Sequence record: PP400785
DNA length: 64,000 nucleotides
Strand: one strand, 5' to 3'
Origin: Escherichia phage FL08
Positions 13,931-53,542 of the stretch are shown in pieces. Made by a program: the position numbers and the translations under genes. The notes below the pieces were generated by a model, which saw only the letters and a program-made list of their open reading frames with translations, was not told where the DNA came from and did not search any database. Position 1 is the stretch's first letter. Each line of letters begins with the position of its first letter.

Positions 13931-15358
13931 CTAAAATTTTAATTCATTTGCCAAAGCATCTAACTGAGCTCGAGTGGATTCATTTCTTTGATAACGATTC
14001 TGCTCAGCCTGAATCTGTTGTGAACCTGCTACTTCGTTCACTTCAGTTGGAGTAGAATCTTGTTCAATTTCTACCCATTTCTGATTTCCCTTTTGAACAC
14101 CCATCAAAAACTTATTCCATTTGTTCTTATCACCATATCGTGATTTGATTTGCTTAATGAGTTGTTGTTCAGCAGCTGCTAGCTCCTCGGTTTCAATGAC
14201 CGCAAGCATAAAATCGGCTGTTGCTGGAAGACCAGCAGATTCTGCAATATCGCTCATGTTAACATCGGAAGAGTCCCAAGCTTGTTTACCAACCTGTGCT
14301 GCAGTCCAAAGAACAGTTTCGGTTTCAACAGCCAGAGCACGCAATTCCTCGGCAATAGCTTTAACAGTTGTGTAACTATTTTCTGAATAAACTCTAATGC
14401 GGCAAGATTTACAAATACCTAGATAGTCGACAATAATGATTGTTGGAACAAAATTCTTCTTGAGCTTCAATTCGTTTAAAAGTGATCGAAATGTATTAGC
14501 GTCTGCTCCACCAGTAGGATACTGTTTAACGATTAAACGGCCGAGAGTAGATTTCTCACGCCATTTTTCCATTTTTCCTTTATATTCAGCGTAAGAAATA
14601 TGCCCATCATCAATGTCATCAAGAGAAACATCAAGCATGTTAGCGTCAATACGCTTAGCACAGACTTCTTCTGCCATTTCCATGGAAATATAAAGAACAT
14701 TATGTCCGAGCTGTAAATAATCTGCCGCTAATGAACACAATCCTAATGATTTACCAACGTTAACGCCAGCCATTAAAACGTTCAGTGTTCCAGTTTCAGC
14801 TCCGCCTTTCGTAATTTTGTTTAGAATTCTGAGTTTAAATGGAACCTTACGAGCTTTATTCATATAAGATAGCCAACGCGCTTCATAGTCATCCATCCAA
14901 TCATGACCAACGTAGCTATCAAATGAAATTGATAATGCTTGGCGCATGATGTCAGGAATAGCACCTACATCTGGCATTTTCTTATTTCGTTTTTCCGGAG
15001 GAAGCTCAGCATTAGTTTGAATTTCGATTATTTTAGACGTAGCATTAAACATCGCCCTTTGCTGAACATATTTTTCTGTTTCTTTTACTAACCAGCTGTG
15101 GTCTTCTGGAGAATCAGCCAGTTTTGAAATAAGTGTTTTTACACCAGAATATTCTGTTTCAGTAAATGAACTATTTTCTAATGCAACATTTAACGCATTA
15201 ATAGATGGAACGCTATGATACTCATTAACATGAGATTTAATTAATTTGAATGTATTTTTAGCTGGACCACTTTCAAAATATTCTGAATCCATATATGGCC
15301 AAACTTTTGAAAAATAAGCTTGATCAAATATGAGATGAGAAAGAATAATTTCTACCAC
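13931..15358 (-). CDS. 41: replicative DNA helicase (gp41, DnaB-like)
   Basis: 475 aa; Walker A GVNVGKS; T4 gp41 size and neighbourhood. Confidence 0.9.
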   Translation of the reverse strand: MVEIILSHLIFDQAYFSKVWPYMDSEYFESGPAKNTFKLIKSHVNEYHSVPSINALNVALENSSFTETEYSGVKTLISKLADSPEDHSWLVKETEKYVQQRAMFNATSKIIEIQTNAELPPEKRNKKMPDVGAIPDIMRQALSISFDSYVGHDWMDDYEARWLSYMNKARKVPFKLRILNKITKGGAETGTLNVLMAGVNVGKSLGLCSLAADYLQLGHNVLYISMEMAEEVCAKRIDANMLDVSLDDIDDGHISYAEYKGKMEKWREKSTLGRLIVKQYPTGGADANTFRSLLNELKLKKNFVPTIIIVDYLGICKSCRIRVYSENSYTTVKAIAEELRALAVETETVLWTAAQVGKQAWDSSDVNMSDIAESAGLPATADFMLAVIETEELAAAEQQLIKQIKSRYGDKNKWNKFLMGVQKGNQKWVEIEQDSTPTEVNEVAGSQQIQAEQNRYQRNESTRAQLDALANELKF

Positions 15359-47855: not shown

Positions 47856-48866
47856 TCATTTATAATAACTTCGGTGGTTTTCAAGATAGACCTTCTCAAG
47901 GAAGTCATCCCAGAAACCCATGTCTACTTTTTGCTGCATACCATTCTTAGAAGCTTCAGTAGATGCTGCTTCTACTTGATCGACCACATCTTCCAAAAAC
48001 TCTTGAACTGTTTTAAATGGATGTTTACCCAACTTCACGTCGAGAATAAATGGAGCATCTTGAAGTGGATAGACTAAGTCACCAGTTTTGTAAATTTCCA
48101 ATAGTTGGAGTCCACCACGACAAGCATGACTCAGAGCTTTCCAGTCAATACCTTCGTTGGCTTCGGCCTTACGAGCGCGTTCACCGTATTCAGCATCTAA
48201 TTTGTTCAGTGACTGCTTAAGCTCAATAAGAGAAAGCGTTGTCTGATATTTACGACCCAACACAGTGTAAAACGTCTGTGGGCCTGTTTTCTCATGATTA
48301 TGAAACACCCATTCACAAAATTCGTTTTCTGGAAGACGATGCTTAATATCTTCAACTTTAGTGCGACGTTGCTTAATAGAACCATCTTCTTGGTAATCAA
48401 CCCATTGCTCAGGGATTTGATTAACTACTTTCAATACATCACGTAATGCAGCCAAACGAGAACCCTTGACACCGTATTTAGAAGCTTGCTTGCGGACATA
48501 TCCTAAATATGATTTCATGTTAGTCGTATAAAAACGAGAACGGTTGTCTTGAATAAACTTCCACACATCAGGCAAATCAGATTTAACCACTAGCTCAGGT
48601 GGAGTGTGAAGCATATCTAATGCTACAGTTTCACCATCTGCTGCTAATTTAAAGAAATATTTAAGACTGTATAGTTCATGGTCAATATCATCTTTAGTGT
48701 TTTTAGATGATGTGTTGTTAGTGTTTTTACTCATGTGCTCTTTGACATTTCCGATAAGAATATCGCGAGCAGGAGGAACAAAAATTTCTTTAAAATCTAC
48801 ATCAGATTCTGGGGTAGAAGTTCCATAAAGATGACTACCAAAATAAGACTTAACTACAGTTTTCAT
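47856..48866 (-). CDS. Pol-beta-superfamily nucleotidyltransferase-like protein
   Basis: N-terminal G-S-x10-D-x-D signature (GSHLYGTSTPESDVD); start taken at MKTVVK (track ORF extends to 48902). Confidence 0.5.
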   Translation of the reverse strand: MKTVVKSYFGSHLYGTSTPESDVDFKEIFVPPARDILIGNVKEHMSKNTNNTSSKNTKDDIDHELYSLKYFFKLAADGETVALDMLHTPPELVVKSDLPDVWKFIQDNRSRFYTTNMKSYLGYVRKQASKYGVKGSRLAALRDVLKVVNQIPEQWVDYQEDGSIKQRRTKVEDIKHRLPENEFCEWVFHNHEKTGPQTFYTVLGRKYQTTLSLIELKQSLNKLDAEYGERARKAEANEGIDWKALSHACRGGLQLLEIYKTGDLVYPLQDAPFILDVKLGKHPFKTVQEFLEDVVDQVEAASTEASKNGMQQKVDMGFWDDFLEKVYLENHRSYYK

Positions 48867-49629
48867 TATTAGACCTTTCATAATCTTCATTAAATTGTAC
48901 AATCAATCGATGATAATTAGATTTTGGATATCCTAATTTACTTATATAAGTTCCGAATGACCCACGTTTAGGTCTATTTAATTTAATCCATAACTTATAA
49001 AGTAAGTCATAGTCTTGCCAATGTTTACCAGTTCTTTGTCTAATTTTAGATGAATTTGATTGTTTCTTTTTAGTTTCAAAATTATTCAAAGATTTTTTGA
49101 CTGCAGCAGAGTGTTTTTCTTTAACTCCCGGTCGTTTAAAAGCAGCTTTCACCCCTTTAGATATTTTTTCTTTAACTTCCGGTTTGTTTTGTGCTTCTAA
49201 CTGGGATTCTGAAATTTTAGCCCTTATTTCAGGAAGACTTAATGTTATCGAACGTTTTTCTCTGTATTCATTAGACTTCCACATTTCTTTCATTGTATTA
49301 GAATGTATTTTTGAAAATTTTTCTCTAACTAACTGATATCCTCTTGAAGTTAATTTGAGATTTCTTCCTAAAGAATCTTCTCCAAAATTATAAAATGACC
49401 ACCATGCATAAATTAATCCAGGCGAATTATAATGAATTTTAGCTAAAAGCCAATGGGCTATAAAATGCTCTCTAGCTGTTAATAAAACTAGATTATCAGA
49501 ATCATCATTACCACCAATACAAGATGGAATAATATGATGCTTTTCCGTATAAAAATTTAATTTAGATTTATCTAATTTTCTGAGTTTTCCTTTCTTAATT
49601 AAATTATTATATACTTTAGTATAATTCAT
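48850..49629 (-). CDS. HNH homing endonuclease (Mob-like; mobD position)
   Basis: N-terminal EKHHIIPSCIGGNDD...NLV.LTAREHFIAH HNH motif; Lys-rich C-terminal repeats. Confidence 0.8.
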   Translation of the reverse strand: MNYTKVYNNLIKKGKLRKLDKSKLNFYTEKHHIIPSCIGGNDDSDNLVLLTAREHFIAHWLLAKIHYNSPGLIYAWWSFYNFGEDSLGRNLKLTSRGYQLVREKFSKIHSNTMKEMWKSNEYREKRSITLSLPEIRAKISESQLEAQNKPEVKEKISKGVKAAFKRPGVKEKHSAAVKKSLNNFETKKKQSNSSKIRQRTGKHWQDYDLLYKLWIKLNRPKRGSFGTYISKLGYPKSNYHRLIVQFNEDYERSNNENCS

Positions 49630-49703
49630 TGGTTCTTCGTCTCATTTAATTTTGCTTTGCATTTATAACACATGTCTGTTCCACTTGAAATAAACATATT
49701 TCC

Positions 49704-50261
49704 TCACTTTGAAATCATAGTTGGAATGACAGAATCAAGATAAGTCTTTAGCGCAATAGCTTCGTCTTTGGTAAATGTGACAATATGTGATCGAAAATCG
49801 TCAATTTGGCGAATAGATACTACATCTCCCTCTTCATAACATTTTGATACATTTAAAAGAGTTTCATCATTCTGATTGCAAGCGTTAGTAATAATAGCAT
49901 TGCAATTTTTGAGCCATTTTAAACTATGTTTTCTTTCATTAGAATAATAAAAATATTTAATCTTAGCTATAAAACTATCCCAATGGATAACTGATAAACG
50001 CATTGACTCACTTTTAATATTAAATCCTGGGCATGAAGAATAAAAATGAATTTTGTGCTCATCATTGATGCTTACAATTTTATCAGTATAAGGATATTCA
50101 ATTTGGGTTAAATGAATAATTTCACTAGATGTAAAATACAGCATATCGTCTTTTTGCGTCAAACGATACATGTTATTTACTTTTTCTATAGCAAATTCAC
50201 CAAAAAGCGGACTAACTTCTAATACTAATCGTTTCATATTGATTCTCTTCGACTCGCTCAC
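49704..50261 (-). CDS. hypothetical protein (185 aa)
   Basis: ORF in operon. Confidence 0.45.
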   Translation of the reverse strand: MSESKRINMKRLVLEVSPLFGEFAIEKVNNMYRLTQKDDMLYFTSSEIIHLTQIEYPYTDKIVSINDEHKIHFYSSCPGFNIKSESMRLSVIHWDSFIAKIKYFYYSNERKHSLKWLKNCNAIITNACNQNDETLLNVSKCYEEGDVVSIRQIDDFRSHIVTFTKDEAIALKTYLDSVIPTMISK

Positions 50262-50430
50262 AATTACATACTCCTTTGAATAATATCAATAATGTTGTTC
50301 ACCAAATTATAAGTAAACATTGGGTAATTTTATATTGAATCATCACATACACAACAAACAAAATTTTCATTCTCTTCTCCCCAGCAGTTGACAAGATTAC
50401 TATACCATAACCTTGCCAACTTGTAAACCA

Positions 50431-50604
50431 TTAAATGACGTTTTCAATAAAATTCTGAAGCTTTGTATGAGCATCAACCATGATTTTCATTTCTTCTTTG
50501 GCGAAAGCTATACCTCTTTCCCGAGAAGAACACTCATAGTCAGAAACTGCATTAGCATATTCTTCAATTAACTTCATTAAAAACATCTGCTTTTCAGTTT
50601 TCAT
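50431..50604 (-). CDS. small acidic protein, member of MxT(R/E)(E/K)Q paralog family (57 aa)
   Basis: Sub-threshold ORF MKTEKQMFLMKLIEEYANAVSDYE...; resembles N-termini of 50594..50788, 50791..50982, 52793..52981, 52978..53163. Confidence 0.35.
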   Translation of the reverse strand: MKTEKQMFLMKLIEEYANAVSDYECSSRERGIAFAKEEMKIMVDAHTKLQNFIENVI

Positions 50605-50788
50605 TATTCCACCTAATCATTTCAAGATATTGAACTAACTTAGCTTTAGATTTATCCAAATCCTTTTTAGCTGCTTCTATACCGTCGTATGAATATCCTT
50701 CACAATGCTCAACTGCTAATTGATATGAATCTATTTCAATATCACGTGCTAATTTAATGATTTTTTCAAACTGTTCGCGTGTTAGCAT
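50594..50788 (-). CDS. small acidic protein, paralog family member (64 aa)
   Basis: MLTREQFEKIIKLARDIEIDSYQ N-terminus shared pattern. Confidence 0.4.
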   Translation of the reverse strand: MLTREQFEKIIKLARDIEIDSYQLAVEHCEGYSYDGIEAAKKDLDKSKAKLVQYLEMIRWNNEN

Positions 50789-50790
50789 AC

Positions 50791-50982
50791 TTAAACTCTC
50801 GTATTATGATCGATAATTTCATCAAGAAACATATCTAACGCTTCTACAGCATTATTAAATTTAGCTTCAAATTCTTCAATACCTGATAAACCTGATAAGG
50901 CAAAGTTAATGCGTTCCTCATCTGCTTTACGAATTAAAGCTACCAATTCCTTAATTTTATCCGCTTGTTCGATACTAATCAT
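50791..50982 (-). CDS. small acidic protein, paralog family member (63 aa)
   Basis: start trimmed to [17 protein letters not shown]. Confidence 0.4.
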   Translation of the reverse strand: MISIEQADKIKELVALIRKADEERINFALSGLSGIEEFEAKFNNAVEALDMFLDEIIDHNTRV

Positions 50983-51170
50983 TATTCCACCACATATGAA
51001 AGAGAGAACATTGCACACGCCATGTGAGTTGCAACTTCATCACACATATTATAACGTTTCTTAAGAAGTTCTACAAGTTCTTCACTAGTAACTTCATCCA
51101 TGTCGACGAAAAAATCACCATTAATGATGACGTAGATATTTCCTTCTTGATTGAGTGCTTCAATTTTCAT
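50982..51170 (-). CDS. hypothetical small acidic protein (62 aa)
   Basis: start trimmed to MKIEALNQ after GGAG; track start is inside promoter. Confidence 0.4.
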
Positions 51171-51187
51171 GATGTTCTCCTCTTTAT

Positions 51188-51232
51188 CCGATAGTTGTAT
51201 AGTACCACAGCTCAAACGGAAAGTAAACCGGT
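51188..51232 (-). promoter_or_regulatory. early promoter cassette
   Basis: gatagttgtatagtaccacag ... gtaaacc core. Confidence 0.5.
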
Positions 51233-51244
51233 AAAATGAAAAAA

Positions 51245-51260
51245 GTCTCCCGAAGGAGAC
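51245..51260 (-). terminator. UUCG-tetraloop terminator hairpin
   Basis: gtctcc-cgaa-ggagac followed by UUUUUU on minus transcript. Confidence 0.55.
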
Positions 51261-51265
51261 TAATG

Positions 51266-51652
51266 TTATTCGAGGGAAAGAAGATACTTACTCTGGTAAA
51301 ACATTCCAGTAATATCATCTATCGTGCTTTGGATGGCTGGAGGCATTTCTTTATAAATGCTGTTAGATTGGTCTAGTATGCGATCAATCATTTTAATTGT
51401 GTCGGTAGGAAGTTTACTGGCATCTGGAATTGAAGGTGTGTATTTTCTACCAGAATACCCCAAATATTGCTCACCAAATTTATCAATCAAATCTGGTAAC
51501 TCGGAGAAAATAAAATCGTATGCTTTGTGTCTAGCATAACTTTTAGTTTCAAAATGTGCAGAATGAAAATAAGCTTGTGCAGCCATTAATAAACCTAAGT
51601 ATTCATCTGCCTTTGAAGGTTTTCCACTTTGTGAAAAGTCGCTGAATTTCAT
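51266..51652 (-). CDS. hypothetical protein (rI.1 position)
   Basis: 128-aa ORF downstream of rI. Confidence 0.45.
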
Positions 51653-51942
51653 TCAGTCTCCAATTTAATGTTCATAATTCTAGCGTATGATTGTGCCATC
51701 TCCGCGCCTCGCTCTATACATTCAAAATCAGAAGAGCACGGGTCATTTTTATAGGTCGTTCTCATAAAACTATAGAATTGTTCAGACGATTCTACGCTTT
51801 TATTTTCAAAAAGCATATAAACGTGCCTAATACCAGATTCCATAAATTTATCAAAATGAGGATCGACATTCGCTTCAATTGGTGGAGATAAAACAAATGA
51901 CAATCCTAGCATGGCAAATAGTGCCGTTGCTTTTAAGGCCAT
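51649..51942 (-). CDS. rI: lysis inhibition regulator RI
   Basis: 97 aa; signal-anchor N-terminus and sequence recognisable as T4 RI. Confidence 0.8.
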   Translation of the reverse strand: MALKATALFAMLGLSFVLSPPIEANVDPHFDKFMESGIRHVYMLFENKSVESSEQFYSFMRTTYKNDPCSSDFECIERGAEMAQSYARIMNIKLETE

Positions 51943-51954
51943 AAAGGCCTCCTA

Positions 51955-52167
51955 TCATTTTTGTCCTGTATTTACTTTATGCCGATGCACGGCCTTAACT
52001 TTATCAAGGTATTTTTCAAAATTTCGCAATCTAGTATAGTCTGCCGGAGATTGGTTGAGTGATACTTCTCGACGCAAAGCTGAAATGATATTTCCAACTT
52101 CCCTACGAATTTCATCTAATTGAAGCACAGTAAGATTGCGAAGTTGCTTTTCAGTTAATTGTAGCAT
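51955..52167 (-). CDS. hypothetical protein (70 aa)
   Basis: ORF between tk and rI. Confidence 0.4.
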
Positions 52168-52209
52168 ATATACCCCTTTAGTTAGATAAACCTATTTATA
52201 ACTTTTGCA

Positions 52210-52791
52210 CTAACCGAGCTTTTTAGTTAATTCATTCCAATGTTTTCTACACAAAGAAACATAAATTTCATCACCAATACAGATTTGATTACCTTCTTTA
52301 ACTGGTGTTCCATCTTCCATTAATCGAGCTGTCATAATCGCTTTTTTTCCGCAATGACAAACTGCCTTTAGTTCAATAAGTTTATCTGCAATCGCTAAAA
52401 GTTCTTTAGAACCTTCAAACAATTTTCCAGCGAAATCAGTCCTTAATCCATAAGCCATAACAGGAACATTATATGTATCAACAATTCGGCTCAATTGATG
52501 CACTTGTTCAGTTTTTAAAAACTGAGCTTCATCTACAAATACACAATGAATATCTTTTTGTGCTTCAGCCCATTTATAGAACTCGAAAATATCCATATCA
52601 TCTGTGATAATATTCGCTTCCTGTTTAATTCCAATGCGAGAAACGACTTCACAGACAGAGTCGCGAGTATCAATAGCAGGCTTAAGAACTAATACACTCA
52701 TTCCGCGTTCTTTATAATTATGTGCAGCAGTCAAAAGAGAAGCAGATTTTCCAGCATTCATTGCTGCATAAGTAAAAATTAAACTCGCCAT
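52210..52791 (-). CDS. tk: thymidine kinase
   Basis: 193 aa (T4 Tk size); P-loop AAMNAGKS; C-terminal Cys4 zinc motif. Confidence 0.9.
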   Translation of the reverse strand: MASLIFTYAAMNAGKSASLLTAAHNYKERGMSVLVLKPAIDTRDSVCEVVSRIGIKQEANIITDDMDIFEFYKWAEAQKDIHCVFVDEAQFLKTEQVHQLSRIVDTYNVPVMAYGLRTDFAGKLFEGSKELLAIADKLIELKAVCHCGKKAIMTARLMEDGTPVKEGNQICIGDEIYVSLCRKHWNELTKKLG

Positions 52792-52792
52792 T

Positions 52793-52981
52793 TTAGTCCT
52801 TAGTTAAATTTTCTAAATATGTTTCTAAATCATTTTCAGCTTTATCGATAGATTTTACTAATTCGTAATATGTTTCGGCATCTCCATAATCAGAAGATAA
52901 TTCAAAAGACAAATCCTTTTCTAAACTAATAATTTCACCAACTAAAAATAATATTTCGTTCTTTTGTTCGCGAGTAATCAT
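52793..52981 (-). CDS. small acidic protein, paralog family member (62 aa)
   Basis: MITREQKNEILFLVGEIISLEKDL pattern. Confidence 0.4.
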   Translation of the reverse strand: MITREQKNEILFLVGEIISLEKDLSFELSSDYGDAETYYELVKSIDKAENDLETYLENLTKD

Positions 52982-53163
52982 AATGAATTTATATAATCAA
53001 TGAGTTCTTGTTCTTTATTATCGAATTCTTTAGAAAGTTCTTCGTATTCATTTGCATTAAAAGGACCGCATTCATCACAAACTTTTTCCAATTCACTGTT
53101 TTTATCCATAACTTCGTGGATAAGAGAAAAGAGTTTGTCTTTTTGTTCTTTGCTTAAACTCAT
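52978..53163 (-). CDS. small acidic protein, paralog family member (61 aa)
   Basis: MSLSKEQKDKLFSLIHEVMDKNSELE pattern. Confidence 0.4.
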   Translation of the reverse strand: MSLSKEQKDKLFSLIHEVMDKNSELEKVCDECGPFNANEYEELSKEFDNKEQELIDYINSL

Positions 53164-53329
53164 ATATTAATTTCCAAAAGTTTTAAAATAATTCGCTTTT
53201 GCTTAAATATTTCCACAGTTAAATGATCAGTATCTTTTTGACCAATTCCAATGGCAAAACCTTTATTAACAGCGAGTTCAATTAAATTATCAAGTTCACG
53301 TAACACTTCATATTGTAACTCAGAACTAT

Positions 53330-53542
53330 TCATTTCGGTTTACCTTCTTTAACGAATTCTGGATAAGGATAAAATCCCGAATAAAATCCTTCACCTTTAT
53401 GATTGATGCATCCTTTATTAGAACAATAGCACCAATAATCAAAATCACAAGCCATTTCATCGTTGCATAAAGCAAAAACAACCGGCCATTTACACTTTTC
53501 ACAGTGGGCATTTTTAAGAATACTAGTTTGGCTCATAACCAT
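53330..53542 (-). CDS. small Cys-rich (putative zinc-binding) protein (70 aa)
   Basis: 7 Cys incl. CEKC pair. Confidence 0.4.
   Translation of the reverse strand: MVMSQTSILKNAHCEKCKWPVVFALCNDEMACDFDYWCYCSNKGCINHKGEGFYSGFYPYPEFVKEGKPK

What the first reader, a model, noticed from the sequence alone, without database searches (positions are those of the whole stretch)
50431..53163. Five-member family of small acidic paralogs flanking the rI-tk locus
ORFs 50431..50604, 50594..50788, 50791..50982, 52793..52981 and 52978..53163 encode 57-64-aa proteins sharing an N-terminal pattern M-x-(T/S)-x-E-Q-x-x-x-(I/L)-x-x-L followed by an acidic helix; three are tandem downstream of rI.1 and two are tandem just downstream of tk. 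One member (50431..50604) is below the ORF-track threshold.
Basis: seen in the sequence. Interest (0 to 1): 0.45.

Follow-up and report, generated by a model that had tools for sequence, protein, structure and literature searches.

The report
Five small helical-hairpin paralogs (DUF7438)
Five tiny neighbouring genes in this T2/T4-like phage really are diverged copies of one gene family, already catalogued as Pfam DUF7438, that encodes small helical-hairpin proteins of unknown function, so the finding is real but ordinary.

Summary
Confirmed, and already catalogued. The window is a T-even phage, 98% identical to T2 and wV7. The five ORFs are the annotated minus-strand genes mobD.2a, mobD.3, mobD.4, tk.1 and tk.2.

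- **Family membership:** all five score 52-69 bits against Pfam PF24219 (DUF7438, cut-off 25). Neighbouring small ORFs do not. A family HMM finds exactly five members in the 64 kb window.
- **Not just composition:** pairwise BLASTP is weak. Models built without a given subfamily still rank that member first of about 1,180 six-frame ORFs, with E from 8e-8 to 2.4e-4. mobD.2a is the weakest.
- **Structure:** AlphaFold predicts the same two-helix hairpin for Tk.2 and MobD.2a (pLDDT 91 and 95).
- **Real genes:** pN/pS is 0.07-0.41. Published T4 omics tables give the four intact members RNA and protein timing classes.
- **Copy number:** 0-5 across T4-like genera and 4-5 intact within Tequatrovirus, with a frameshift, a truncation and in-register Tk.2/Tk.1 chimeras. 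A copy directly upstream of tk is the most conserved position.

Function is unknown. My best guess, with low confidence, is Rop-like dimeric hairpins that bind a host or phage protein as dispensable accessory factors. The labels "MobD molybdopterin", "helicase loader" and "acb2" are unsupported.

The parts
52978..53163 (-). tk.2: 61-aa DUF7438 member, net charge -9. Its ATG overlaps the stop of the upstream 57-aa ORF (ATGA).
   Evidence: ORF; T2/T4 annotation; Pfam DUF7438 68.8 bits; leave-one-out E 5e-7; AF2 hairpin H5-30/H37-60 with pLDDT 90.6; junction sequence.
52793..52981 (-). tk.1: 62-aa DUF7438 member, net charge -10. Its ATG overlaps the tk.2 stop (ATGA). Its last codons (ACT AAG GAC) carry an AAGGA that I read as the likely ribosome-binding site of tk, which starts 1 nt after the tk.1 stop.
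   Evidence: Pfam 56.2 bits; leave-one-out E 8e-8; pN/pS 0.27.
50791..50982 (-). mobD.4: 63-aa DUF7438 member, net charge -7. Its ATG overlaps the mobD.5 stop (TAATG). It carries a 9-nt tandem duplication (TTATCAGGT x2, 50881-50898) in the loop.
   Evidence: Pfam 55.5 bits; leave-one-out E 5e-7; loop-length variants of 60/63/67/70 aa among orthologs.
50594..50788 (-). mobD.3: 64-aa DUF7438 member, net charge -3. It starts 2 nt after the mobD.4 stop.
   Evidence: Pfam 64.1 bits; leave-one-out E 6e-6; pN/pS 0.18.
50431..50604 (-). mobD.2a: 57-aa DUF7438 member and the most divergent of the five (net charge -2). Its ATG lies 11 nt inside the end of mobD.3, behind an AGGTGGA that looks like a ribosome-binding site. 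It is intact here and in T2 but frameshifted in the T4 reference.
   Evidence: Pfam 52.4 bits; phrog_2758; leave-one-out E 2.4e-4 at rank 1; AF2 hairpin with pLDDT 94.7; pN/pS 0.07; T4 frameshift.
50982..51170 (-). mobD.5: 62-aa first gene of the mobD.5-mobD.2a unit. It is co-transcribed with the family members but is not one of them.
   Evidence: No DUF7438 hit; phrog_3024; annotation.
51199..51228 (-). T4-type early promoter upstream of mobD.5 (GTTTAC, 18 nt, TGG-TACTAT).
   Evidence: Sequence read. A mobD.5 promoter, and a transcript insensitive to RegB, are reported for T4 in PMC1702504. The T4 early-promoter consensus is from my own knowledge; the generic sigma-70 scan did not list this site.
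51244..51261 (-). Terminator-like hairpin followed by a T-run after rI.-1. It separates the tk-rI unit from the mobD.5 unit.
   Evidence: 7-bp stem, 4 GC pairs, TTTTT tail; sequence.
52210..52791 (-). tk (thymidine kinase), the gene immediately downstream of tk.1. Not a family member, but the conserved neighbour of the family.
   Evidence: A DUF7438 gene sits directly upstream of tk in every genome examined that has the family near tk.

Best explanation
The five ORFs are old, diverged paralogs of one lineage-specific gene family (Pfam DUF7438; PHROGs 653, 2758 and 4859) found in T4-like phages of enterobacteria.

**What is shown**
- Each gene encodes a soluble protein of about 7 kDa that is predicted with high confidence to be a single antiparallel two-helix hairpin.
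- The conserved residues are a helix N-cap-like start (M-[IL]-[TS]-x-E-Q), an a/d hydrophobic stripe on each helix with a central small Ala, and the C-terminal L-x-x-[YF]-[LI]-E-x-[LI].
- The 'open' end of the hairpin, where the N- and C-termini meet, is the conserved part. The loop varies in sequence and length.
- The genes are expressed early, in two tightly packed units. Tk.2 and tk.1 sit at the end of the vs-tk.4-...-tk string, with overlapping stop and start codons. MobD.4, mobD.3 and mobD.2a follow mobD.5 behind its own early promoter.
- In T4, mobD.2a and mobD.3 at least are dispensable in the laboratory.

**What is inferred (about 0.3 confidence)**
- A single 60-residue hairpin with one hydrophobic stripe per helix is unlikely to be stable alone. 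The proteins therefore probably pair into Rop-like four-helix bundles, as homodimers or with the adjacent paralog made from the same mRNA.
- The variable, mostly acidic surfaces of those bundles would bind a host or phage protein.
- That would make them accessory host-takeover or counter-defence factors that diversify by duplication, recombination, loop indels and loss.
For: **Homology**
- Pfam DUF7438 hits at 52-69 bits for all five and for all 40 diverse relatives tested.
- Exactly five hits in the window; the next ORF scores E = 1.6.
- Leave-one-subfamily-out HMMs rank each member first.
- Profile-profile tk.1-tk.2 P = 1.3e-6 and mobD.3-mobD.4 P = 5.9e-5, each over 57 columns.
- Natural Tk.2-N/Tk.1-C chimeras joined in register (P0027, P0063).

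**Fold**
- AF2 hairpins with pLDDT 90.6 and 94.7.
- Heptad pattern and the conserved Ala at Tk.1 positions 20 and 48.

**Real, expressed genes**
- pN/pS 0.07-0.41, compared with tk at 0.06.
- A mobD.5 promoter is reported for T4.
- Overlapping stop/start junctions.

**Accessory and fast-turnover character**
- The nrdC.11-mobD.3 block is deletable in genome-reduced T4, and the corresponding fusion protein P0083 was recovered.
- Copy number is 0-5 across genera and 4-5 intact within Tequatrovirus, with a frameshift and a truncation.
- Only 45 clusters among 1.84 billion representative proteins, so the family is narrow.
Against: - No experiment or annotation gives a function. The papers found mention these genes only in a deletion list and in omics supplement tables, with no functional study.
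- Dimerisation and target binding are inferred from general coiled-coil principles. The tools could not run a multimer prediction.
- MobD.3 and MobD.2a are barely acidic, so an 'acidic surface' is not a family-wide property.
- Purifying selection as strong as that on tk for mobD.2a (pN/pS 0.07) does not fit a simple arms-race picture.
- Homology of mobD.2a rests on the weakest statistics. It was not significant with shallow profiles and reached only E = 2.4e-4 with the deeper family.
Confidence: 0.55

Rival explanations
1. The tk-adjacent members are accessory partners or regulators of thymidine kinase or nucleotide metabolism. They would be made in fixed ratio with Tk through translational coupling, and the mobD copies would be later dispersed duplicates.
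For: A DUF7438 gene lies immediately upstream of tk, with overlapping or near-abutting stop and start codons, in every examined genome that has the family near tk:
- the window, T2, T4, FL12, SH-2, sb4 and SNUABM01;
- Mosigvirus APCEc01, Gelderlandvirus STP4-a, Dhakavirus QL01 and Klebsiella phage Roth16;
- a metagenomic T4-like contig with three tandem copies before TK.

In STP4-a, Roth16 and that contig this is the only location within the stretch examined. In another metagenomic contig a member abuts a P-loop AAA_33 kinase. Tk.1 and Tk.2 share Tk's protein timing class (early RNA, middle protein).
Against: - CC31, Matisse and JEP8 have tk without any DUF7438 gene within 8-12 kb, so Tk does not need the family.
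- Three of the five copies sit in a separate transcription unit with no enzyme gene.
- Gene order in T4-like genomes is conserved generally, so adjacency alone is weak evidence of functional linkage.
- There is no sequence or structural feature that suggests nucleotide binding.
Confidence: 0.15
2. The resemblance is convergent. These would be unrelated small amphipathic helical ORFs of an AT-rich phage that share composition and a helix-capping start, not common ancestry.
For: - Pairwise BLASTP among the five is weak. The best pair reaches E = 6e-5 in a five-sequence database and several pairs score E > 0.1.
- With shallow ortholog-only profiles, mobD.2a and mobD.4 were not recovered significantly.
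- One reversed-sequence control reached P = 4e-4.
- The Pfam model may have been seeded with these same proteins, so its scores could be circular.
Against: - Leave-one-subfamily-out models that exclude every sequence similar to the tested member still rank it first of about 1,180 ORFs from the same AT-rich window.
- Other small helical ORFs next door (rI.1, mobD.5, the 57-aa ORF) score nothing.
- The matches are full-length and collinear with the same loop position.
- Intermediate sequences bridge the subfamilies.
- Natural chimeras join Tk.2 and Tk.1 in register.
Confidence: 0.04
3. The ORFs matter mainly as translated spacers. Translating them would deliver ribosomes to downstream genes such as tk by coupling, and the peptides themselves would have no function.
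For: ATGA and TAATG overlaps join the ORFs. There is no obvious Shine-Dalgarno sequence before tk.1. An AAGGA that I read as tk's likely ribosome-binding site lies inside the last codons of tk.1.
Against: - The amino-acid sequences are under purifying selection (pN/pS 0.07-0.41).
- The fold-defining residues are conserved across genera at 20-40% identity.
- The T4 omics tables assign the proteins protein-level timing classes.
- The last gene of the mobD cluster (mobD.2a) has the strongest constraint yet is followed by a promoter-like site rather than by a coupled gene.
Confidence: 0.05
4. They are members of a characterised family, as suggested by database labels: the Acb2 anti-CBASS sponge, a helicase loader, or a MobD molybdopterin-guanine dinucleotide biosynthesis protein.
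For: - GenBank calls the Roth16 member 'anti-CBASS protein acb2'.
- PHROG 4859, a subfamily of this family, is labelled 'helicase loader'.
- RefSeq names MobD.4 homologs 'molybdopterin-guanine dinucleotide biosynthesis protein MobD'.
Against: - The Roth16 protein hits DUF7438 at 57 bits and does not hit Acb2_Tad1_hairpin, whereas T4 Vs.4 (Acb2) hits that family at 71 bits.
- The family profile against Vs.4 gives hhalign probability 0.2%.
- No Pfam family other than DUF7438 reaches its cut-off, and there are no NCBIfam hits.
- 'mobD' is the name of the neighbouring HNH homing endonuclease gene. I infer that the molybdopterin name is a propagation artefact from that gene symbol.
Confidence: 0.03

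Closest known systems
Pfam PF24219 (DUF7438); PHROGs phrog_653, phrog_2758, phrog_4859; T4 genes tk.1, tk.2, mobD.2a, mobD.3, mobD.4
   Same: Direct membership. All five score 52-69 bits against a 25-bit cut-off. They are 93-100% identical to annotated proteins of T2, wV7 and T4.
   Different: Nothing structural. In this window, as in T2, all five copies are intact, whereas the T4 reference has a frameshifted mobD.2a. This window's MobD.4 has a 3-aa loop duplication shared with wV7.
Rop/ROM (ColE1 repressor of primer), a 63-aa helical hairpin that dimerises into a four-helix bundle
Acb2/Vs.4 (Pfam PF24729, Acb2_Tad1_hairpin), the phage cyclic-nucleotide sponge encoded about 3 kb away in T4
   Same: A small helical phage protein containing a hairpin, encoded in the same early region. 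One GenBank record labels a DUF7438 member 'acb2'.
   Different: Neither the HMM nor the profile comparison shows similarity. Acb2 is 88-98 aa and belongs to a different family.

Membership tests
Pfam DUF7438 (PF24219) | Whole-protein HMM score at or above the curated gathering threshold (25 bits). | tested here: met
   Scores are 52.4, 64.1, 55.5, 56.2 and 68.8 bits for mobD.2a, mobD.3, mobD.4, tk.1 and tk.2, each covering nearly the whole 57-position model.
Pfam DUF7438 (PF24219) | Similarity that does not depend on the member's own orthologs being in the model, as a control for circularity and composition. | tested here: met
   Leave-one-subfamily-out HMMs rank each member first of about 1,180 window ORFs, with E = 8e-8, 5e-7, 6e-6, 5e-7 and 2.4e-4. 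With ortholog-only shallow profiles, mobD.4 and mobD.2a were not significant.
Pfam DUF7438 (PF24219) | Single-domain protein of about 55-67 aa with an N-terminal M-[IL]-[TS]-x-E-Q...[IL]..L and a C-terminal L-x-x-[YF]-[LIV]-x-x-[LI]. | tested here: met
   See alignment A3 and the column statistics. Three members fit literally, Tk.2 fits with a +1 offset, and MobD.2a fits with a -1 offset and E-K in place of E-Q.
Pfam DUF7438 (PF24219) | Two-helix antiparallel hairpin fold. | tested here: met
   AF2 predictions: Tk.2 H5-30/H37-60 with pLDDT 90.6; MobD.2a H4-30/H36-55 with pLDDT 94.7. These are predictions, not experiments.
PHROG phrog_653 | Best PHROG hit is phrog_653. | tested here: met
   Met for four of five (E 1e-17 to 2e-25). 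MobD.2a's best hit is phrog_2758 (E 2e-35), and it reaches phrog_653 only at E = 0.09.
Acb2/Tad1 hairpin (PF24729), anti-CBASS sponge | HMM match to Acb2_Tad1_hairpin, or profile similarity to Vs.4. | tested here: not met
   The Roth16 member and all 40 family members show no PF24729 hit. hhalign against T4 Vs.4 gives probability 0.2%.
Acb2/Tad1 hairpin (PF24729), anti-CBASS sponge | Binding of cyclic oligonucleotide signals. | not testable with these tools
   Needs biochemistry.
Rop-like four-helix-bundle dimers | Sequence homology to Rop. | tested here: not met
   No Pfam hit other than DUF7438. Identity is 12-14% in the structural alignments.
Rop-like four-helix-bundle dimers | Hairpin monomer that superposes on Rop. 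| tested here: met
Rop-like four-helix-bundle dimers | Homodimeric antiparallel four-helix bundle. | not testable with these tools
   No multimer prediction was available. The idea is inferred only from the single a/d stripe per helix.
Helicase loader (label of phrog_4859) | Similarity to a characterised helicase-loading protein such as T4 gp59. | tested here: not met
   No Pfam or NCBIfam family apart from DUF7438 is hit. phrog_4859 is simply the Mosigvirus-type subfamily of this family.
MobD molybdopterin-guanine dinucleotide biosynthesis protein (RefSeq name) | Match to any molybdenum-cofactor biosynthesis family. | tested here: not met
   No NCBIfam hit at E <= 0.1 and no Pfam hit. I infer that the name derives from the gene symbol of the neighbouring mobD homing endonuclease.

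The most novel reading that the evidence does not exclude
The DUF7438 hairpins could be a diversifying set of small inhibitors. Adjacent paralogs would form homo- or heterodimeric four-helix bundles that each neutralise a different host factor, for example an anti-phage defence protein or a nucleotide-metabolism enzyme. That would explain the copy-number turnover, the chimeras and the loop indels. The tk-proximal copy would be the ancestral one, functionally tied to thymidine kinase or dNTP supply.
Probability: 0.2. Interest if true: 0.55.

Novelty: already known. Interest (0 to 1): 0.22.

Why it matters
T4 is the best-studied large lytic phage, yet many of its small early genes still have no assigned function, and these five are among them. 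This work gives anyone screening T-even accessory genes for host-takeover or counter-defence roles a tidy, testable unit:
- the five genes are one family with one predicted fold;
- published T4 omics tables give the four intact members RNA and protein timing classes;
- they are under purifying selection, and at least mobD.2a and mobD.3 are dispensable in the laboratory;
- they are gained and lost between close relatives.

It also flags three misleading database names. It does not reveal a new kind of system.

Tried and rejected
- **Pairwise BLASTP among the five:** too weak to decide.
- **Ortholog-only subfamily profiles (hhalign) and shallow leave-one-out HMMs:** these linked tk.1, tk.2 and mobD.3 but not mobD.2a, and mobD.4 only partly. 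The question was resolved after the exhaustive representative search added about 35 divergent relatives.
- **PDB sequence search:** the only hit, an anti-CRISPR protein (23aa_A, E = 0.0025), consists of two short non-collinear pieces with individual E-values of 0.41 and 5.7. I rejected it as noise.
- **PADLOC and NCBIfam:** nothing meaningful.
- **Database labels Acb2, 'helicase loader' and 'MobD molybdopterin':** tested and rejected.
- **Literature searches** for DUF7438 and for the tk.1, tk.2 and mobD.x gene names: no functional study found. The T4 genome review (PMC150520) is not held in the library.
- **tblastn of two metagenomic members (P0115, P0126) against the phage collection:** no match.
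- **DNA-level repeats between the copies:** none beyond the roughly 23-nt stretch encoding the shared N-terminal motif. The duplications are therefore old, with no sign of recent gene conversion.
- **A sixth member in the window:** none found; the next-best ORF scores E = 1.6.
Full report
**Identity of the region**

The 3.1 kb around the finding is 98.2% identical to phages wV7 and T2. It matches 544 phage records, almost all of them Tequatrovirus. All genes here are on the minus strand. Using the T2 record that carries T4-style gene names and the T4 reference, the five ORFs are:
- mobD.2a (50431-50604)
- mobD.3 (50594-50788)
- mobD.4 (50791-50982)
- tk.1 (52793-52981)
- tk.2 (52978-53163)

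Read in the direction of transcription, the gene order is: vs, tk.4, tk.3, two extra small ORFs, tk.2, tk.1, tk, rI.1, rI, rI.-1, a terminator-like hairpin, an early promoter, mobD.5, mobD.4, mobD.3, mobD.2a. Tk.2 and tk.1 are upstream of tk, not downstream. The other three follow rI.-1 and mobD.5, not rI.1.

**Is the similarity real?**

A MAFFT alignment of the five shows only 19-25% identity to the first sequence, with four invariant columns. Pairwise BLASTP is marginal. Profile methods, however, are clear.

- All five hit Pfam PF24219 (DUF7438) at 52-69 bits against a 25-bit cut-off, over essentially the whole model.
- The neighbouring small ORFs (rI.1, mobD.5, the 57-aa ORF at 53160-53333, the Zn-binding ORF, tk.3) do not hit it.
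- Four of the five fall in PHROG 653 and mobD.2a falls in PHROG 2758.

The Pfam seed may contain these same proteins, so I tested for circularity in two steps.

1. *Ortholog-only profiles.* These link tk.1 to tk.2 (P = 1.3e-6, 57 columns), tk.1 to mobD.3 (2.9e-5) and mobD.3 to mobD.4 (5.9e-5, 57 columns). They do not link mobD.2a, and reversed-sequence controls reach 4e-4. A shallow leave-one-out HMM likewise failed for mobD.4 and mobD.2a.
2. *A deeper family.* An exhaustive profile search of 1.84 billion representative proteins returned only 45 clusters at E <= 1e-3. About 35 of them are proteins of 58-65 aa beginning MITKEQ or a close variant. I added these, excluded every sequence that BLAST-matches the tested subfamily, and rebuilt the models. 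Each left-out member then ranks first among about 1,180 six-frame ORFs of this same AT-rich window. The E-values are 8e-8 (tk.1), 5e-7 (tk.2), 6e-6 (mobD.3), 5e-7 (mobD.4) and 2.4e-4 (mobD.2a). The next-best ORFs score E = 0.02-2.

Two further checks agree. A family HMM finds exactly five members in the 64 kb window, with the next ORF at E = 1.6. Tk.2 carries the motif one residue further in, and MobD.2a is a shifted variant. MobD.2a is the weakest member, but it is still supported.

**Anatomy of the proteins**

AlphaFold2 predicts the same two-helix hairpin for the most typical member, Tk.2 (helices 5-30 and 37-60, pLDDT 90.6). It predicts the same for the most divergent member, MobD.2a (helices 4-30 and 36-55, pLDDT 94.7).

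Column statistics on 40 diverse members show the following, in Tk.1 numbering:
- hydrophobic positions at 10, 13/14, 17, 24 in helix 1 and at 38, 45, 52, 55/56, 59 in helix 2, which is an a/d heptad stripe on each helix;
- a conserved small Ala at positions 20 and 48;
- a near-invariant T/S-x-E-Q at the start of helix 1, which I read as a helix N-cap.

The termini (the open end of the hairpin) are the conserved part. The loop varies in sequence and length. MobD.4 orthologs come in 60, 63, 67 and 70-aa forms. This window's copy has a perfect 9-nt tandem duplication at 50881-50898.

Net charges are -10, -9 and -7 for Tk.1, Tk.2 and MobD.4, and -3 and -2 for MobD.3 and MobD.2a. 'Acidic' is therefore only partly a family trait.

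**Are they real, expressed genes?**

Summed pairwise pN/pS across four to seven Tequatroviruses is 0.07 (mobD.2a), 0.18 (mobD.3), 0.28 (mobD.4), 0.27 (tk.1) and 0.41 (tk.2). For comparison, tk is 0.06 and rI is 0.13.

Supplementary tables of a time-resolved T4 transcriptome and proteome study (PMC9697503) classify the genes as follows:
- MobD.3 and MobD.4: early RNA, early protein.
- mobD.2a: early RNA, with no protein class assigned. This fits its frameshift in the T4 reference.

A mobD.5 promoter, with a transcript insensitive to RegB, is documented for T4 (PMC1702504). The corresponding sequence, GTTTAC-18 nt-TGGTACTAT, lies at 51228-51199, just after a terminator-like hairpin at 51261-51244.

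The gene junctions point to translational coupling:
- ATGA overlaps before tk.2 and before tk.1;
- a TAATG overlap before mobD.4;
- an 11-nt overlap before mobD.2a;
- an AAGGA that I read as tk's likely ribosome-binding site, lying inside the last codons of tk.1.

**Distribution and turnover**

I scanned regions around tk in other phages with the family HMM:

| Phage or group | DUF7438 copies found |
|---|---|
| This window, T2 | 5 intact |
| T4 reference | 4 intact, plus a frameshifted mobD.2a |
| FL12, SH-2, SNUABM01 | 3 mobD copies plus one divergent Tk.2-like gene before tk; no tk.1 |
| sb4 | 3 mobD copies, tk.1, a truncated tk.2 and a short remnant of a further copy |
| Mosigvirus APCEc01 | 3 |
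| Gelderlandvirus STP4-a | 2, both before tk |
| Dhakavirus QL01 | 2 |
| Klebsiella phage Roth16 | 1, before tk |
| CC31, Matisse, JEP8 | none within 8-12 kb of tk |

A metagenomic T4-like contig has three tandem copies immediately before TK. Tk.2-N/Tk.1-C chimeras joined in register occur in other phages (P0027 from UFV-AREG1, and P0063). Relatives of the family also turn up by tblastn in Citrobacter phage Merlin and Pectobacterium phage PM2.

Between the copies there is no DNA-level repeat beyond the roughly 23 nt that encode the N-terminal motif. The duplications are therefore old. The nrdC.11-mobD.3 block can be deleted from T4 (PMC9825161), and the resulting fusion protein appears in the database as P0083. 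In T4, mobD.2a and mobD.3 at least are therefore dispensable in the laboratory.

**How it most likely works**

The following points are shown by the evidence above:
- the five are one family of expressed, selectively constrained early proteins of about 7 kDa;
- the predicted fold is a helical hairpin;
- they are made from two tightly packed units;
- copy number turns over between relatives.

The mechanism below is inferred. A lone 60-residue hairpin with a single hydrophobic stripe per helix is unlikely to be stable on its own. The proteins therefore probably pair into Rop-like four-helix bundles, possibly with the adjacent paralog made from the same mRNA. Their variable surfaces would then bind a host or phage protein, making them dispensable accessory factors for host takeover or counter-defence. 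I put about 0.3 on this mechanism and about 0.95 on the family, fold and expression statements.

The main rival is a functional tie to thymidine kinase. It is supported by the universally conserved position directly before tk and by one case next to an AAA_33 kinase. It is weakened by T4-like phages that have tk without the family, and by the separate mobD cluster.

Three other rivals are disfavoured:
- **Pure convergence** is contradicted and by the in-register chimeras.
- **Translated spacers with no protein function** is contradicted.
- **The database labels** fail direct tests. 'Acb2' fails. The 'helicase loader' PHROG 4859 is just the Mosigvirus subfamily of this family. 'MobD molybdopterin biosynthesis' has no HMM support and looks like a gene-symbol propagation artefact.

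**Novelty and score**

The genes have been annotated in T4-type genomes for decades. An old T4 record in the hit list (X04567) already lists ORFs of 62 and 61 aa next to tk. Their grouping into one family is already curated as Pfam DUF7438 and in PHROGs. What this work adds is an independent confirmation of the paralogy, including for mobD.2a. It also adds a copy-number survey, evidence of selection and expression, and the rejection of three misleading names. Function remains unknown. This is a correct but ordinary finding, and I score interest at about 0.2.

Noticed in passing
window 53160-53542 (minus strand): There are two extra small ORFs between tk.2 and tk.3: a 57-aa ORF (phrog_3452) and a 70-aa ORF matching Pfam Phage_zn_bind (PF23895, 100.9 bits). 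They are present here and in T2 but absent from the T4 reference, where tk.3 abuts tk.2.
   Followed up: partly
window 48850-50261 (minus strand): A 259-aa ORF has an HNH-like motif (HHIIPSCIGGNDDSDNLVLLTAREH), and it is followed by a 185-aa ORF. Both correspond in size and position to T4 mobD and mobD.1. T2 lacks the endonuclease and has a shorter mobD.1. The window is therefore T2-like at tk.2-tk.3 but T4-like at mobD, which makes it a mosaic. I did not confirm the HNH domain with an HMM.
   Followed up: partly
window 50881-50898: A perfect 9-nt tandem duplication (TTATCAGGT x2) adds Ser-Gly-Leu to the MobD.4 loop. The resulting 63-aa form is shared with wV7 (P0035). Other Tequatroviruses have 60, 67 or 70-aa loop variants.
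   Followed up: yes
L002 (T4 NC_000866) 14168-14349: The T4 reference mobD.2a is split by a frameshift into an N-terminal piece (the annotated 38 aa) and a C-terminal piece in another frame. It is intact in this window, T2, FL12, SH-2, sb4 and SNUABM01. The T4 omics table gives mobD.2a no protein class.
   Followed up: yes
P0027 (phage UFV-AREG1) and P0063: These are natural in-register chimeras with a Tk.2 N-terminal helix and a Tk.1 C-terminal helix. They imply deletion by recombination between the tandem paralogs.
   Followed up: partly
RefSeq/GenBank annotations of relatives (T4p101; L007 7834-7998; phrog_4859; rI.-1 homologs): Several product names look misleading. MobD.4 homologs are called 'molybdopterin-guanine dinucleotide biosynthesis protein MobD'. 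The Roth16 DUF7438 gene is called 'anti-CBASS protein acb2'. PHROG 4859 is labelled 'helicase loader'. None of these three is supported by the HMM tests. The label 'starvation-inducible transcriptional regulator' on rI.-1 also looks doubtful, but I did not test it.
   Followed up: yes
L014 2277-3622 (metagenome SRR26329164): A weak DUF7438 member abuts a 385-aa AAA_33/Zeta-toxin-like P-loop kinase, with the stop and start codons sharing a base. This echoes the position before thymidine kinase in T4-like phages. It is a single case.
   Followed up: no
L019 (Shigella phage sb4) 409-486 and 3252-3380: There is a roughly 20-aa remnant (MTSEQAFKLRDLIETLIGE) that looks like an internally deleted Mosigvirus-type member. 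There is also a tk.2 copy lacking its ATG and its C-terminal helix. Both are signs of ongoing decay of family members.
   Followed up: partly
window 50399-50427 (minus strand): A strong promoter-like site (TTTACA, 17 nt, TATAGT, with a TG extension; 10 of 12 matches) lies immediately downstream of mobD.2a. It may mark the start of the next early unit, mobD.2/mobD.1.
   Followed up: no
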